54,017 nt of DNA, from contig CAINXS010000067.1 of the NCBI GenBank assembly GCA_903854995.1, positions 1 to 54,017 of the forward strand. The letters are read 5' to 3'. The position numbers and the translations under genes were made by a program. Positions within the stretch are counted from its first letter, which is position 1. Each line of letters starts with the position of its first letter. The notes beneath the pieces were generated by a model. The model did no database searches. It had not been told where the DNA came from and saw nothing but the letters and a program-made list of their open reading frames with translations. Positions 9,497 to 35,257 of the stretch are shown one piece after another. Source of the DNA: Candidatus Moraniibacteriota bacterium. GTDB lineage: Bacteria; Patescibacteriota; Minisyncoccia; Moranbacterales; UBA1568.

Positions 9497-10075
9497 ATGG
9501 CAGCCAAGGATACGAGGGAATACGAGCTTTTTTATCTCGTCGGTGATTCGAAGGAGGCCGAGCTTCCGACGATTCGGACCGAGGTGGAGAAGATCGTGAC
9601 GGACTTCGGAGGAACGTTCCTGCCCGAGGAGACGGAGGAAAAGAGGAATCTTGCGTATGAGATTCTGGACGAGCGCCGCGGTACGTATGTGGCGCGCCGT
9701 TTCACGATGCCGGAAGCCGGTGACGAACCGTTCTCCGCGGAGGCGCCGGAAAAAGTGAATGCGATCGACGGGATGACCCGACTGCTTCAGCTGTACAAGC
9801 CGGTTTCGCGATTCATCCTGATCCGGGCTGAGAAACTCCCGGAGCTCAAGGCGATTCCGCGCGAGGAACGTGCGAAGCCGGTCCGACGTGACGATCGTCG
9901 TAGCAGTGGCGGAGGGCGCCGCTTCCCGGATCGCGGAGGGGAGCGCCGGTCCGTGGAGCCGGTCCGTGCCGAGAAGCCGACGGTGAAGGAGGAAGAAAAG
10001 CCGGTTGAAAACGAGAAGAAGCCGATCGCGCAGGAAGACCTCGATAAGCAGCTGAAGGAAGTGCTCGATATCTAA
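9497..10075 (+). CDS. rpsF: 30S ribosomal protein bS6 with long C-terminal extension
   Basis: REYELFYL...KRNLAYEI...GTY; position before ssb-rpsR. Confidence 0.9.
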   Translation: MAAKDTREYELFYLVGDSKEAELPTIRTEVEKIVTDFGGTFLPEETEEKRNLAYEILDERRGTYVARRFTMPEAGDEPFSAEAPEKVNAIDGMTRLLQLYKPVSRFILIRAEKLPELKAIPREERAKPVRRDDRRSSGGGRRFPDRGGERRSVEPVRAEKPTVKEEEKPVENEKKPIAQEDLDKQLKEVLDI

Positions 10076-10821: not shown

Positions 10822-11016
10822 ATGGAAGACGCGATGCAGAAAAAGCTCGATCACCTCGATTACAAGGACGCCTATTTTCTTCGGAAGTTCCTGAACTCCC
10901 AGGGAAAGATCTATCCGCCGAAGCGGTACGGACTGTCGGCGAAGCAGCAGAAGGACGTGTCGCTCGCGATCAAGCGTGCGCGGTTCATGGGACTCATCCC
11001 GTACGTGGTGAAGTAG
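10822..11016 (+). CDS. rpsR: 30S ribosomal protein bS18 (no Zn-binding cysteines)
   Basis: LDYKDAYFLRKFL...GKI...AIKRARFMGLIPY. Confidence 0.95.
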   Translation: MEDAMQKKLDHLDYKDAYFLRKFLNSQGKIYPPKRYGLSAKQQKDVSLAIKRARFMGLIPYVVK

Positions 11017-15096: not shown

Positions 15097-16539
15097 ATGA
15101 CTCCGAAGAAGACCGTGCTCCCGAAGAAGGCCAAACCGGCGGCGAAGAAGCCGGTGGCAAAGTCCGCCGTGAAGCCGGAAAAGAAGTCCGTGGCGAAAGC
15201 CGCTCCGGCACCGCTCGTTTCCGAGAACGAGCTCCTCATGCAGTCATTGCGCGGCATGCGCGATATTCTGCCCGACGAGCAGCCGTATTGGGAGCGCGTG
15301 AGGCGGAGCCTATCCACGGCCGCGCAGGACTACGGGTTCCAGCGTATCGATACGCCGACAGTCGAATACCTGCATCTTTTCGTGCGTTCCATCAAGGAAG
15401 GGACGGACATCATAGACAAGGAGATCTACTCGTTCCAGACCCGTGGCGGAGACCGCGTGGCGCTCCGGCCCGAGTTCACCGCCGGAATCGGTCGCGCCTA
15501 CATCCAGCACGGGATGAGTGTGCTTCCGAAGCCGATCCGCCTCTTCTCCATGGGACCGGTGTTCCGTTATGACCGGCCTCAGGAGGGACGATATCGCGAA
15601 TTATGGCAGGGGGACTTCGAAGTGTTCGGCGAGGCCGATCCGATATTGGATGCCCAGGTGATGCAGGTCGCGTACCGTGTCGTCCGGGAGCTCGGTCTCA
15701 AGGATGTCGAATTTCAGGTGAACTCCATCGGAACGCCCGAATCGCGCAAGCGATATGAGAAGGCTCTGGTCCGGTTCCTCGAGTCCCAGAAGCACAAGCT
15801 CTGTCAGGTGTGTCGCGAGCGTCTTACGACGAACCCGATGCGCATCCTCGACTGCAAGGAGGACAAGTGCGTGCAACTGACCTCGCAGGTCCCGCAGGCG
15901 CTCGATTTCCTCGACGACGAGTCACGCGCGCACTTCAAATCGTTGCTCGAGTATCTGGACGAGCTCGAACTTCCGTATTCCATCAATCCTCGTCTCGTCC
16001 GCGGACTCGACTATTACACGCGGACCGTGTTCGAGATCTGGTCGACCGACCGTGAGGGGAAGAAATACGCGCTCGGTGGCGGTGGCCGGTACGACAACCT
16101 CATACAGGAGCTCGGTGGCGAGCCGACGCCGGCGATCGGTTTCGGCCTCGGTCTCGACCGCGTCGTGCTTGAGATGAAGCGTACCCAGGTGCGGCCGTAC
16201 GAATTTCCGAAGCCACGCGTGTTTCTCGCGCAGCTCGGCGATCTTGCGAAGAAGAAAAGCCTCAGGCTGTTTTCCGAACTTGAGAAGCACGGCATCCTGA
16301 CGACGGAGAGCTTCGGTCGCGGAAGTCTCAAGGCGCAGATGCGCGTCGCGGGACGGCTCGGCGTGGAGGTGACGATCATCCTCGGTCAGAAGGAAGCCCT
16401 TGATGGCACGGCCATCGTGAAGGATATGGTGTCGGGGACGCAGGAGACCGTCACGCAGGAACGACTCGTGGATGCCGTGAAAAAAATCCTCAAGACGAAC
16501 GTGACGCTTGCACATCCGCCCGTGAAATCCGAAAAGTGA
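15097..16539 (+). CDS. hisS: histidine--tRNA ligase with Lys/Ala/Pro-rich N-terminal extension
   Basis: RGMRDILP, LRPEFTA, FRYDRPQEGRYRE, LVRGLDYYTRT, GGGRYD. Confidence 0.98.
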   Translation: MTPKKTVLPKKAKPAAKKPVAKSAVKPEKKSVAKAAPAPLVSENELLMQSLRGMRDILPDEQPYWERVRRSLSTAAQDYGFQRIDTPTVEYLHLFVRSIKEGTDIIDKEIYSFQTRGGDRVALRPEFTAGIGRAYIQHGMSVLPKPIRLFSMGPVFRYDRPQEGRYRELWQGDFEVFGEADPILDAQVMQVAYRVVRELGLKDVEFQVNSIGTPESRKRYEKALVRFLESQKHKLCQVCRERLTTNPMRILDCKEDKCVQLTSQVPQALDFLDDESRAHFKSLLEYLDELELPYSINPRLVRGLDYYTRTVFEIWSTDREGKKYALGGGGRYDNLIQELGGEPTPAIGFGLGLDRVVLEMKRTQVRPYEFPKPRVFLAQLGDLAKKKSLRLFSELEKHGILTTESFGRGSLKAQMRVAGRLGVEVTIILGQKEALDGTAIVKDMVSGTQETVTQERLVDAVKKILKTNVTLAHPPVKSEK

Positions 16540-16554
16540 TCGTTCCGACGCAGT

Positions 16555-16908
16555 ATGGAAGAGACCGTTTTCGACAAAATCATACGGAAAGAGATTCCGG
16601 CGGACATCGTGCTCGAGACGGACGAGCTGATCGCGTTTCACGATATTCATCCGCTCGCGCCTGTGCACGTCCTCATCATCCCGAAACGTCGAATCGAGAC
16701 TATCGACGACCTTGAGGACGGGGACGCGGGGCTTGCGGGGCGCATGATCATCGCTGCGCGCGATATCGCGAGGGACTTGAACATTTCCCGGAAAGGGTAT
16801 AAGCTTCTGTTTCGGGTCGGTCATGACGGCGGGCAGGAAATCCCGCATATTCATCTGCACCTGATCGGCGGGGCCAGGCTCTCGGAAGGGATCCGACCCG
16901 CGAAATGA
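16555..16908 (+). CDS. HIT family nucleotide hydrolase
   Basis: FDKIIRKEIPA; HIHLH histidine triad. Confidence 0.95.
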   Translation: MEETVFDKIIRKEIPADIVLETDELIAFHDIHPLAPVHVLIIPKRRIETIDDLEDGDAGLAGRMIIAARDIARDLNISRKGYKLLFRVGHDGGQEIPHIHLHLIGGARLSEGIRPAK

Positions 16909-16961
16909 AAGAGACGCCCGAAAGGGCCGGGATGAGGCGGAAATTCAATCGATATCACTAG

Positions 16962-16971
16962 GAAAGGAGGT
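16962..16971 (+). promoter_or_regulatory. extended Shine-Dalgarno of rpsU
   Basis: GAAAGGAGGT ending 8 nt before ATG 16980. Confidence 0.85.
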
Positions 16972-16979
16972 CGGTATAC

Positions 16980-17234
16980 ATGATACAGGTACGTAAGAAG
17001 GAAAAGGAGACGCCGGAAAGCATGATCCGTCGTTTTTCTCGGCGTGTCCAGCAGAGCGGCACGCTTCAGCGCGCGCGAAAGCTTCGCTTCCGTCGCGAGG
17101 AGAAGAGCAAGACCGAGCGTCGCAATGAGGCGCTCTACAAGACGAAGATCCGCAAGGAAATCGGCCGGCTGAAGAAATTCGGAAAATTCGACGATGAATC
17201 GCTCCGCGAGATCAAGAAAAAACTCAACCGCTAA
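16980..17234 (+). CDS. rpsU: 30S ribosomal protein bS21 (84 aa, C-terminally extended)
   Basis: VRKKEKETPESMIRRFSRRVQQSG; conserved rpsU-yqeY synteny. Confidence 0.85.
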   Translation: MIQVRKKEKETPESMIRRFSRRVQQSGTLQRARKLRFRREEKSKTERRNEALYKTKIRKEIGRLKKFGKFDDESLREIKKKLNR

Positions 17235-17247
17235 ACCATAGTCCGCT

Positions 17248-17700
17248 ATGACCCTCTACGAAACGATCCAGGGCGACCTCAAGGAGGCCATGAAGGCGGG
17301 GGACGCCGTACGACGCGACGTGATCCGTATGGTCGGGAGCGCGCTCAAGAACGAGGCGATCGAACTCCGGAAGCCAGCGGTCGAGCTGACCGATGCCGAG
17401 TCGGTTGCCGTTTTGCGACGGCTGGCCAAGCAGCGTCGCGAGAGCATCGCGAGCTTTCTCGCGGGCGGTCGTCCGGAACTTGCCGAGCAGGAAGAGTCCG
17501 AGCTTTCGGTCATCGGCGCGTATCTCCCGGCGAATCTTCCTGATGATGAAATCCGGAAGCTTGTCGCCGAAGCGAAAGCCGAGACCGGAGCCGCGTCGAA
17601 AGCCGACTTCGGAAAGCTCATGGGAGCCGTATCGAAGAAGGTCGCCGGTCGCGCGGACGGGAACGCCGTCAAAGTCCTCGTCGAGGAAACGCTTTCCTAG
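17248..17700 (+). CDS. GatB/YqeY domain protein
   Basis: DLKEAMKAGD...KQRRESI...GRPELAEQE...YLP...GKLMG...GRADG. Confidence 0.95.
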   Translation: MTLYETIQGDLKEAMKAGDAVRRDVIRMVGSALKNEAIELRKPAVELTDAESVAVLRRLAKQRRESIASFLAGGRPELAEQEESELSVIGAYLPANLPDDEIRKLVAEAKAETGAASKADFGKLMGAVSKKVAGRADGNAVKVLVEETLS

Positions 17701-17704
17701 TCGC

Positions 17705-18157
17705 ATGGAACCCGAACTCGACATCGTGAGGAATATCGATTGCGAGTCTGACGATGATTTTTTTGTCGCGGTCGTGAAAGAGACGATAGCCCGATCCGGG
17801 CTGTCGTCTCTTTCCTCGTACCGCACCGTATCCGCGGGTATCGCGCTCGTGACCGACGAGGCGATCGCGGAACTCAACGGGACGTATCGGGGCAAGGCCG
17901 TGCCGACCGACGTCCTGTCGTTTTCGGAACACGAGGGGGAGGAGATCCGTCCCGATGCGGACGGGAACATATTTCTCGGCGATCTCGTGATCGCGCCCGA
18001 CTTCGTGCGCCGTGCGGCGGCGGGGGATGGCGTTCCGTTCCGTATGGAACTCGCGTTCGTCTGTTCGCATGGCATACTCCACCTCCTCGGATTCGATCAT
18101 TCTCCCGAAATGTTCCGGATCCAGGATGAAGTGACGGAGACATTCTTTCCCCGCTGA
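17705..18157 (+). CDS. ybeY: rRNA maturation endoribonuclease YbeY
   Basis: LNGTYRGK..PTDVLSF, LGDLVI, HGILHLLGFDH. Confidence 0.95.
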   Translation: MEPELDIVRNIDCESDDDFFVAVVKETIARSGLSSLSSYRTVSAGIALVTDEAIAELNGTYRGKAVPTDVLSFSEHEGEEIRPDADGNIFLGDLVIAPDFVRRAAAGDGVPFRMELAFVCSHGILHLLGFDHSPEMFRIQDEVTETFFPR

Positions 18158-18229
18158 TATCCGCGCGCGTTGGCGGGGCGCGCCGTTCCATTGTAAAATA
18201 TCCGACGACGGTCCGAATCATTTTTTCCT

Positions 18230-18589
18230 ATGATGAAATTCGTAAAAAGTTTTCGACATGCCGCGGACGGGATCCGCAGTGCGGCGTCGACGGAACGGAA
18301 TTTCCGTATCGAGCTCGTGTTGGCGGCGGGAGCATTCGCGCTTTCCTGGGTCCTCCCTCTTTCCGTGACGGAGCGGGCCATGGTGTTTCTGACTATCGGT
18401 ATCATTCTCGCGCTCGAGCTGCTGAATACCGCTTTCGAACAGTTGACCGATATGCTGAGCCCGCAGTTTCATGAAAAGGTGAAGACCATCAAGGATCTTG
18501 CCGCCGGCGCGGTGCTGCTTTCGTCTTTCAGCGCGGTTCTCGTCGGGCTTGTCATCTTCGCACCGCATCTCGTGGCGCTGTTTTCGTGA
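18230..18589 (+). CDS. dgkA: diacylglycerol/undecaprenol kinase family protein
   Basis: SFRHAADGI...ERNFRI, ELLNTAFE, KDLAAGAVL. Confidence 0.9.
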   Translation: MMKFVKSFRHAADGIRSAASTERNFRIELVLAAGAFALSWVLPLSVTERAMVFLTIGIILALELLNTAFEQLTDMLSPQFHEKVKTIKDLAAGAVLLSSFSAVLVGLVIFAPHLVALFS

Positions 18590-33148: not shown

Positions 33149-35257
33149 ATGGCCCGTCTCAAGCCTATCGAGAAGATTCGTAATATCGGTATTATCGCGC
33201 ATATCGACGCGGGAAAGACGACGACGACGGAACGCGTCCTTTTCTATACCGGCATCACGCACAAGATCGGAGAGGTGCATGAGGGCGAGGCGACCATGGA
33301 CTGGATGGAACAGGAGCGAGAGCGCGGCATTACGATCACCAGCGCCGCGACGACCTGTTTTTGGAAGGACCATCAGATCAACATCATCGATACCCCGGGG
33401 CACGTCGACTTCACCGTGGAGGTGGAGCGTTCTTTGCGCGTCCTCGACGGCGGAGTGGTCGTCTTCGACGGCAAGGAGGGCGTGGAGCCGCAGTCCGAGA
33501 CCGTGTGGCGCCAGGCGGAGAAGTACAAGGTGCCGCGCATGTGCTTCATCAACAAGATCGACAAGGAGGGTGCCGATTTCACCGTGGCGCTCGAATCCAT
33601 CTGGAACCGGCTTACGCCGCACGCGGTCGCGATGCAGATCCCGATGGGGGAGCGCGGGGATTTCTACGGCGTCGTCGACCTTCTCAAGATGAAAGGGTAT
33701 ACCTTCGACGGCCCGATGGGCGAAATCGTGATCGAAGGCGAGATTCCGGCGGAACTGGCCGACAAGGCAAAAGAATGGCGCGAAAGACTCGTGGAGAAGG
33801 TCGCCGAGACCGACGACGCGCTCACCGAAAAGTTCCTCGGCGGCGAGGAGATTTCCGTCGACGAACTCAAGGCGGCAATTCGCAAGGCCGTCATCGCGAC
33901 GCGTCTCGTGCCGGTCTACACCGGAACGGCGCTTCGCAACAAGGGCGTGCAGCTCGTGCTCGACGCGGTCGTGGATTTCCTCCCGTCTCCGATAGACGTT
34001 CCGCCGATGGCCGGCGAGGACGTGAAGACCGGTGAGGCGATGACACGCAAGCCGAGCGACGACGAACCGTTTTCCGCGCTCGCGTTCAAGATCGCGACCG
34101 ATCCGTTCATTGGACAGCTGACGTTCTTCCGCGTGTATTCCGGCTCTCTCAAGACGGGAAGCTATGTGCTCAACGCCTCCAAGGGGGAGCGGGAGCGTGT
34201 CGGACGCATCGTCCGGATGCATGCGAGCCATCGTGAGGAGATCGAGGACATCTACGCGGGCGACATCGGCGCGCTCGTCGGCATGAAGGCGACGACGACC
34301 GGCGATACGCTCTGTGACGTCGATCATCCGGTACTGCTCGAATCGATCACCTTTCCGGAGCCGGTCATCGACATTGCCATCGAACCGAAGACCAAGGCTG
34401 ACCAGGAAAAAATGGGCGTCGCGCTCAAGAAGCTCGCCGAGGAGGATCCGACCTTCCGCGTGCATACCGACGAGGAGAGCGGCCAGACCATCCTTTCCGG
34501 TATGGGCGAACTGCACCTCGACATCATCGTCGATCGCATGAAACGGGAATTCAAGGTCGAAGTGAACGTCGGCCGTCCGCAGGTGGCATACCGTGAGACG
34601 ATCCGCGAGACCGCCCAGGCGGAAGGGAAATATATCCGTCAGTCCGGCGGTCGCGGTCAGTACGGTCATTGCTGGCTCCGCGTCGAGCCGCTTGAGACCG
34701 GCAAGGGCTACGAGTTCGAGGACGAGATCAAGGGAGGTGTCATTCCGGGAGAGTTCATCAAGCCGATCAACCGCGGAGCGTTCGAGGCGGCCTAGTCCGG
34801 CGTGCTTGCCGGGTACCCGATGGTCGACGTGAAGGTCGTCGTCTACGACGGATCCTTCCACGATGTCGACTCTTCGGAAGCGGCCTTCAAGATCGCGGGC
34901 TCCATGGCGTTCAAGGAAGCGACCCGCCGCGCGAAGCCGGTCATTCTCGAACCGATCATGAACGTCATCGTCATCACTCCGGAAGCGTTCATGGGCGATA
35001 TCGTGGGAGATATCAATTCGAAGCGCGGCATGATCAAGGAGATGACCGACCGTGGGGAAGGGAACGCCCGCGTGAAGGAAATTCATGCCGATGTGCCGCT
35101 CGCCTCGATGTTCGGATACGCGACGCAGCTCCGGTCCATGTCCCAGGGACGGTCGAACTATTCCATGGAATTCGGCCATTATGCCGAGGTTCCGACGAAT
35201 ATCGCGACCGAGATCATCGGGAGCCGGCAGGGGGTCGTCGGGAAGCGGGTGGAATAG
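33149..35257 (+). CDS. fusA: elongation factor G, interrupted by an in-frame TAG at 34793-34795
   Basis: [35 protein letters not shown]; the same frame continues SGVLAGYP...[11 protein letters not shown]...LEPIM after the TAG. Confidence 0.95.

What the first reader, a model, noticed from the sequence alone, without database searches (positions are those of the whole stretch)
16955..17234. rpsU alone has a full Shine-Dalgarno: candidate bS21 anti-SD-sequestration autoregulation in a CPR bacterium
Seen: GAAAGGAGGT (10 nt complementary to the canonical 16S 3' end) precedes rpsU. The other ~25 ribosomal-protein and factor genes here have no SD or at most AGGA/AAGGA, and typically start ...(cg/ca/c/t)TATG. 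bS21 (84 aa) and bS6 both have C-terminal extensions. Established: in Flavobacterium johnsoniae (Bacteroidia) the anti-SD is occluded by bS21/bS18/bS6 and rpsU carries a uniquely strong SD, so bS21-lacking ribosomes upregulate it. Inference: the same feedback circuit may operate in Parcubacteria; I do not know of it being described there. A few accessory genes (600, 971, 18769) also carry SDs and could be co-regulated.
Basis: partly seen in the sequence, partly recalled or inferred. Interest (0 to 1): 0.75.

Follow-up and report, generated by a model that had tools for sequence, protein, structure and literature searches.

The report
Conserved extended ribosome-binding site on rpsU
In a tiny-genome (CPR) bacterium whose core genes lack the classical ribosome-binding signal, the gene for ribosomal protein bS21 keeps a long, conserved one that changes together with the 16S rRNA tail in related lineages, which likely lets bS21 throttle its own synthesis, as proven so far only in Flavobacterium.

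Summary
Observation largely confirmed. rpsU has an 11-bp Shine-Dalgarno (SD) match to the genome's own 16S tail (-16.6 kcal/mol); 27 other ribosomal-protein and factor genes in the window reach at most -3.6. It is not alone genome-wide: four non-ribosomal genes (two pilins, DUF378, a Lys/Ala-rich peptide) are stronger. The genome groups with Moranbacterales. The site is at or below -13 in 36 of 39 relatives and 74 of 80 named genomes, against 5 of 818 neighbouring genes. Across the class it follows the anti-SD: 24 of 27 genomes with intact CCUCC have it, 2 of 47 without. That pattern rests on only about five changes and is not significant phylogenetically. Stronger evidence is compensatory change: G070's variant tail has a 15-nt perfect complement before rpsU, unique in that genome; G142/G339 show a weaker case. 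Pairing is therefore well supported. Autoregulation is inferred (0.6). The Bacteroidia pocket is only partly present: a Tyr54-like residue and bS18 Asn56/Gln58 are there, the bS18 N-terminal contacts and the bS6 helix are not. I found nothing in print for CPR. This scan noted the same phenomenon earlier on other CPR DNA.

The parts
16961..16971 (+). Extended Shine-Dalgarno GGAAAGGAGGT, 11 bp with 16S nt 1534-1544 (one G-U), -16.6 kcal/mol
   Evidence: conserved in relatives
16972..16979 (+). 8-nt spacer to the start codon; sequence and length vary among relatives
16980..17234 (+). rpsU, bS21, 84 aa; invariant Tyr53; predicted extra C-terminal helix 72-83
9497..10075 (+). rpsF, bS6, 192 aa, long extension ending in an acidic motif; no SD
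10822..11016 (+). rpsR, bS18, 64 aa; Phe19/Asn25/Gln27 align with F. johnsoniae Phe50/Asn56/Gln58; no SD
15097..18589 (+). Gene cluster hisS-hit-rpsU-yqeY-ybeY-dgkA around rpsU; the five other genes have no SD (0 to -1.2)

Best explanation
rpsU carries a conserved extended Shine-Dalgarno that is complementary to the 3' tail of the cell's own 16S rRNA, in a genome whose core genes have none, and this likely makes bS21 synthesis self-limiting: 30S subunits lacking bS21 would form the long helix and translate rpsU, while bS21-loaded subunits would do so poorly. Shown: the site, its conservation, its rarity among core genes, its co-loss and compensatory change with the 16S tail. Inferred: that initiation on rpsU needs the pairing; that bound bS21 (Tyr53, long C-terminal helices) blocks the tail or clashes with the long helix; that this gives negative feedback. 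The blocking surface is probably not a copy of the Bacteroidia bS21/bS18/bS6 pocket.
For: Rank 1 among ribosomal-protein genes and below -13, the two published criteria. Conservation: 36 of 39 relatives read and 74 of 80 named genomes at or below -13, against 1 of 368 and 5 of 818 neighbours. Class: 24 of 27 with intact CCUCC against 2 of 47. Compensatory cases: G070, 15-nt perfect complement, -14.4 with its own tail against -1.3 with the canonical tail, 0 of 2000 shuffles, and the only such site before a start codon in that genome; G142 -12.1 and G339 -9.3 against -7.1. Most intermediate sites are 11-13-nt helices with one bulge or mismatch: 23 of 27 reach -13 or lower by duplexfold. In other classes SD-bearing rpsU often starts GTG/TTG, 23 of 39 against 1 of 21, which fits dependence rather than maximal output. 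EF-Tu, HU and stand-alone ribosomal-protein genes have no SD (names by eye). Tyr53 in 80 of 80. The bS21 tail shrinks from a median 15 to 3 residues where CCUCC is gone. Era is not found above cut-off in G000 or four other genomes. In F. johnsoniae the extended helix and bS21 are mutually exclusive (PMC13000457).
Against: No expression, structural or genetic data. Four non-ribosomal genes have stronger SDs, and rpsU does not pass the extrapolated chance intercept. Phylogenetic correction leaves 5 changes per trait and 3 supported independent pairs, p 0.5. Three genomes keep CCUCC without an rpsU SD (G134, G160, G077); in other classes 9 of 42 with an intact anti-SD have none. bS18 lacks Tyr32, Arg34 and Lys37 counterparts; Phe50 occurs in 2 of 6 order members; Gln58 is common also without an anti-SD. 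The Tyr is order-specific, 6 of 40 SD-bearing class genomes, and its match to Tyr54 rests on a one-residue offset in profile alignments, not on an alignment with F. johnsoniae bS21. G070 is a single genome with no relative found. The G142 case is weak (40 of 2000 shuffles).
Confidence: 0.6

Rival explanations
1. The anti-SD is always accessible and the strong SD only boosts output: rpsU sits in a housekeeping cluster and needs stronger initiation to match other ribosomal proteins, like the pilins. No feedback.
For: The stronger SDs belong to likely abundant small structural proteins. rpsU lies inside hisS-hit-rpsU-yqeY-ybeY-dgkA with no consensus promoter found just upstream. Co-loss and compensation with the 16S tail are expected under this model too. 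All 80 named genomes use ATG.
Against: EF-Tu, HU, bS20, uS15, bL27, bL28, bL31 and bL33 have no SD (by eye except bL28). One of three pilin paralogue loci on C32 with the same N-terminus has no SD. SD-bearing rpsU genes in other classes often use weak start codons. It does not explain why the gene singled out encodes the protein next to the SD helix, as in Bacteroidota.
Confidence: 0.22
2. The pairing matters but does another job, such as loading a 30S subunit that protects the mRNA or opening a local hairpin; bS21 levels do not gate it.
For: The local fold buries part of the SD. SD-mediated mRNA stabilisation is known from Firmicutes (recalled, not checked).
Against: Spacing stays in the initiation range in 80 of 80 named genomes; flanks diverge freely while the site is kept.
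Confidence: 0.1
3. Chance, or a neutral remnant from an SD-using ancestor.
For: rpsU does not pass the genome-wide extrapolated intercept. Some accessory genes carry SDs even around SD-less rpsU genes.
Against: Kept across 12 families while flanks change, with G-U-preserving substitutions; compensatory change in G070; mock windows give 0 hits at or below -15.
Confidence: 0.03

Closest known systems
rpsU (bS21) translational autoregulation with anti-SD sequestration in Flavobacterium johnsoniae and other Bacteroidota (PMC7797042, PMC9976891, PMC13000453, PMC13000457)
   Same: SD-poor genome with an intact anti-SD; extended SD on rpsU reaching the tail end, below -13 and best among ribosomal-protein genes; compensatory changes where the anti-SD varies (G070's core UCUCU is the same as the published ASD3); a Tyr near position 54; bS18 Asn56/Gln58.
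   Different: Unrelated phylum. rpsU is not the only strong-SD gene. It lies inside a gene cluster rather than standing alone. bS18 lacks the N-terminal contacts and the bS6 extension is different. bS21 is 20 residues longer, with a predicted extra helix whose length follows anti-SD retention. Many sister lineages have lost both the site and the anti-SD.
Predicted rpsU autoregulation in Chlorobia (PMC9976891)
   Same: Inferred from sequence by the same two criteria; pocket residues differ from F. johnsoniae.
   Different: Chlorobia keep 11 pocket residues but not Tyr54; here a Tyr is present and fewer pocket residues are.
Anti-SD loss in a subgroup of Parcubacteria (PMC9297842)
   Same: Same lineage; the paper found the motif in 48% of Parcubacteria and left the reason open.
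   Different: The passages read do not link it to rpsU and call bS21 frequently absent; I found bS21 in 147 of 151 class genomes.

Membership tests
Bacteroidota-type bS21 autoregulation | 16S rRNA keeps a canonical anti-SD | tested here: met
   G000 tail UCACCUCCUUUCU; same in 28 of 29 tails printed for relatives, the other looking eukaryotic. The mature 3' end was not mapped.
Bacteroidota-type bS21 autoregulation | Most genes lack SDs (SD hits no more than mock hits) | tested here: met
   SD hits are below mock hits from -1 to -5 (82 against 91 at -5), with a small excess beyond (32 against 22 at -8), 994 genes
Bacteroidota-type bS21 autoregulation | rpsU best among ribosomal-protein genes and below -13 kcal/mol | tested here: met
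   -16.6; no ribosomal-protein start is stronger in the called or all-start scans. Energies are my ViennaRNA scan, not free_scan.
Bacteroidota-type bS21 autoregulation (Flavobacteriales pattern) | rpsU is the single gene beyond the chance intercept | tested here: not met
   Intercept -17.1; three called genes and one miscalled pilin exceed it, rpsU does not
Bacteroidota-type bS21 autoregulation | rpsU SD covaries with variant anti-SD | tested here: met
   G070 (15 nt) and G142/G339; 2 of 41 non-CCUCC genomes tested with their own tail, plus G339
Bacteroidia anti-SD pocket | bS21 Tyr54 | tested here: inconclusive
   Tyr53 in 80 of 80; profile ranges suggest a one-residue offset; no direct alignment to F. 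johnsoniae bS21; fold search uninformative
Bacteroidia anti-SD pocket | bS18 Phe50, Asn56, Gln58 | tested here: met
   All three in G000, whose best PDB hit is 7jil; order-wide Asn 6 of 6, Gln 5 of 6, Phe 2 of 6
Bacteroidia anti-SD pocket | bS18 Tyr32, Arg34, Lys37, Ser38 | tested here: not met
   The 64-aa protein begins at about position 32 with other residues, by extending the ungapped alignment
Bacteroidia anti-SD pocket | bS6 C-terminal helix with Trp100, Arg103, Lys107 | tested here: not met
   Long linker without Trp, ending in an acidic motif also found in anti-SD-less genomes; F. johnsoniae bS6 not among the PDB hits
Bacteroidota-type bS21 autoregulation | Tail sequestered in vacant 30S; bS21 loss raises rpsU translation | not testable with these tools
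   Needs cryo-EM or reporter work

The most novel reading that the evidence does not exclude
Patescibacteria evolved their own bS21 gate on the 16S tail, using a lineage-specific C-terminal helix. bS21-free ribosomes translate a small extended-SD regulon (rpsU, a type IV pilin, a T4SS-type pilin, a Lys/Ala-rich peptide). This circuit is the last job of the anti-SD, so lineages that dropped the rpsU site then lost the anti-SD and the bS21 tail, explaining anti-SD loss in half of Parcubacteria.
Probability: 0.2. Interest if true: 0.85.

Novelty: new variant of a known kind. Interest (0 to 1): 0.62.

Why it matters
It would extend the clearest bacterial case of specialised ribosomes to a second, unrelated phylum, with a different protein surface. 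It also offers a testable reason for a published puzzle: why about half of Parcubacteria lost the nearly universal anti-SD. The class holds the whole series (site plus anti-SD, compensated variants, anti-SD without site, both lost), a natural experiment on how SD-free initiation takes over.

Tried and rejected
Pfam and NCBIfam do not recognise this bS21. A mis-sized 16S pattern returned 0 of 151 and was redone. AlphaFold gave a helical model (pLDDT 80.5), but the fold search listed only generic helical matches. No RNA holder was listed. Relatives of G070: its family holds one genome, and two metagenome scans found no related rpsU (0 of 116 loci, from a scan stopped after 5 of 64 parts). An apparent A-rich complement in family f23 was rejected (-4.1 or weaker). 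G148's SD (-8.7 canonical) is not supported by its own tail (607 of 2000 shuffles). The bS6 extension and bS18 Gln58 were rejected as markers because they persist without an anti-SD. The DUF378 SD is not kept in G021, G056 or G112. Era as the reason for keeping the anti-SD: no match over cut-off in 5 of 5 genomes. The genome-level Fisher test (p 5e-14) was set aside because kin are not independent. No complex prediction was run, since the tool cannot place the rRNA tail.

Full report
The site. GGAAAGGAGGT lies at 16961-16971, 8 nt before the ATG of ORF 16980-17234. The ORF is bS21: all 22 PDB matches are bS21 and homologues are named S21, several from Candidatus Moranbacteria; Pfam and NCBIfam miss it. 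The genome has one 16S gene ending ...UCACCUCCUUUCU. I scored ungapped pairing to these 13 nt with ViennaRNA (no dangles, initiation included). This is close to, but not the same as, the free_scan method behind the published -13 threshold.

Rank in the genome. No gene caller was installed, so I trained one without an SD term. Of 1017 called genes, 994 had enough upstream sequence. SD hits are below mock-window hits from -1 to -5 and in small excess beyond. rpsU scores -16.6 and ranks 4th. Stronger are a T4SS-type pilin (-21.1), a 39-aa Lys/Ala-rich peptide (-19.5) and DUF378 (-18.3); a type IV pilin whose start I had miscalled scores -20.2. The exponential extrapolation used for Flavobacteriales gives -17.1, which rpsU does not pass. 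The 27 other ribosomal-protein and factor genes called in the window reach at most -3.6, and those recognised elsewhere at most -3.7 (names by eye except S6, S18, L28). So rpsU is alone among translation genes, not in the genome.

Conservation in the order. All 41 genomes searched have bS21. Of 40 relatives, 39 could be read and 36 score -13 or lower; the exceptions are G034 (-8.7), G029 and G040 (-11.6). Flanks diverge freely and substitutions mostly keep pairing through G-U. The 16S tail is identical in 28 of 29 printed, the other looking eukaryotic. rpsU had the best site in 16 of 18 loci where it was called; 1 of 368 neighbours reached -13. In the best 80 of 424 named-collection matches, 80 reach -10 and 74 reach -13, against 5 of 818 neighbours. 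These sets may overlap and are not additive.

The class. bS21 was found in 147 of 151 genomes. I fetched 105 and read 104; the values are bimodal (25 at or below -13, 41 at or below -7, the rest -3.0 or weaker). For 74 genomes both the rpsU leader and the 16S end were read. With intact CCUCC, 24 of 27 have a site at or below -8; with C1535U, 1 of 4; with other tails, 1 of 43. On a five-protein tree (78 of 86 rows kept) each trait changes 5 times, with 3 supported independent pairs, none discordant, p 0.5. The co-loss is consistent but not statistically independent evidence.

Compensation. Scoring 45 variant or lost tails against their own rpsU leaders gave three strong pairings. G070's tail lacks CCUCC (core UCUCU), and its rpsU leader holds a perfect 15-nt complement: -14.4 against -1.3 with the canonical tail, 0 of 2000 shuffles, 0 of 103 other leaders. 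A 12-nt piece of it followed by a start codon occurs once in that genome, at rpsU. G142 (-12.1, 40 of 2000 shuffles) and its congener G339 (-9.3) pair better with their own tail than with the canonical one (-7.1); G168 has the same tail and no site. G075 keeps 11 bp with a C1535U tail. This mirrors the ASD2/ASD3 covariation in Flavobacteriales (PMC13000453). G070 is one genome and I found no relative.

Other classes. bS21 was found in 145 of 161 genomes. One genome from each of 60 families: 33 at or below -8 and 23 at or below -13. Of 42 with an intact anti-SD, 27 have a site and 9 have none. Most intermediate scores are long helices with one bulge or mismatch (23 of 27 at -13 or lower by duplexfold, which adds dangles), and SD-bearing genes often start GTG/TTG, 23 of 39 against 1 of 21. 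Neighbour controls exist for only 20 of the 60.

The platform. Tyr53 is invariant in the order and probably matches Tyr54, but I never saw a direct alignment to F. johnsoniae bS21, and only 6 of 40 SD-bearing class genomes have it. The model predicts an extra helix at 72-83. The tail after the conserved KxG motif has a median of 15 residues with intact CCUCC and 3 without (kin not independent). bS18's best PDB hit is F. johnsoniae, with Phe50, Asn56 and Gln58 matched. Across 34 of 40 loci read, Asn56 is fixed in the order (6 of 6) and absent from 11 of 11 anti-SD-less genomes, but Gln58 is general and Phe50 sporadic. The N-terminal contacts are missing. The bS6 extension ends in an acidic motif that is present with or without an anti-SD. 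Era was not found above cut-off in 5 of 5 genomes.

Mechanism. The comparative data show that the site is selected for pairing with the 16S tail. In F. johnsoniae such a helix excludes bS21 sterically and initiation on rpsU depends on it. I infer the same logic here, with a different surface (0.6). The main rival is a plain output boost on an accessible anti-SD (0.22): the pilin sites favour it; the SD-less EF-Tu, HU and stand-alone ribosomal-protein genes and the weak start codons count against it.

Literature. Searches and term look-ups in PMC9976891, PMC13000457, PMC10783764 and PMC12641178 found no report of an rpsU SD in CPR. The library lacks most subscription papers. Seen: PMC9976891 passages and sections 20, 33 and the first part of 34; PMC7797042 passages; PMC13000457 passages and section 17; PMC13000453 abstract and Discussion; PMC9297842, PMC10783764, PMC12123416 and PMC12641178 passages; PMC12281837 search listing only. 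No supplements were read; the organism table and residue figures of PMC9976891 may bear on novelty and on the pocket comparison. This scan's own notes report the phenomenon in Dojkabacteria, another CPR genome and Opitutales; they are unchecked and not counted as support. Two further look-ups on this protein and on compensatory change returned nothing.

Verdict. A real, conserved element that pairs with the 16S tail. It works like the Bacteroidota rpsU site but is not a member of the Bacteroidia pocket family. Autoregulation is likely but unshown. New variant of a known kind; interest 0.62.

Noticed in passing
window 34793-34795: In-frame TAG splits the EF-G gene; five same-genus genomes have an open frame there, so it is probably an assembly error or a strain mutation.
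   Followed up: partly
G000:C64 16S 3' end; L368-L413, L457-L465: The 16S tail and the following precursor bases form a small hairpin that is kept by compensatory changes in many variant tails, even after CCUCC is lost; possibly a processing signal.
   Followed up: partly
G000:C16:3978-4343 (-), C73:50169-50558 (+), C87:9366-9485 (-), C70:18016-18222 (+): Type IV pilin, T4SS-type pilin, Lys/Ala-rich peptide and DUF378 carry SDs stronger than rpsU's; a similar peptide in L051 also has an SD (-9.0).
   Followed up: partly
L109-L188: Accessory genes with strong canonical SDs occur at similar rates around SD-less rpsU genes (29 of 920 at or below -10) and SD-bearing ones (13 of 407), including genomes with no anti-SD.
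   Followed up: no
class and phylum searches: bS21 is present in 147 of 151 class and 145 of 161 phylum genomes, although Pfam misses this one and a paper calls it frequently absent from Parcubacteria; family f97 had none in 7 of 7.
   Followed up: partly
window 9497-10075; L189-L227: bS6 ends in a conserved acidic motif on a long variable linker across the class; function unknown.
   Followed up: no
L060 (G030:C160): An rRNA 3' end that looks eukaryotic, probably contamination of that bin.
   Followed up: no
G049:C31, G198, G233: Genomes with two bS21 matches; G049's second copy has no SD.
   Followed up: no
window 16915-16931: Small predicted hairpin between hit and the rpsU SD; conservation not tested.
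   Followed up: no
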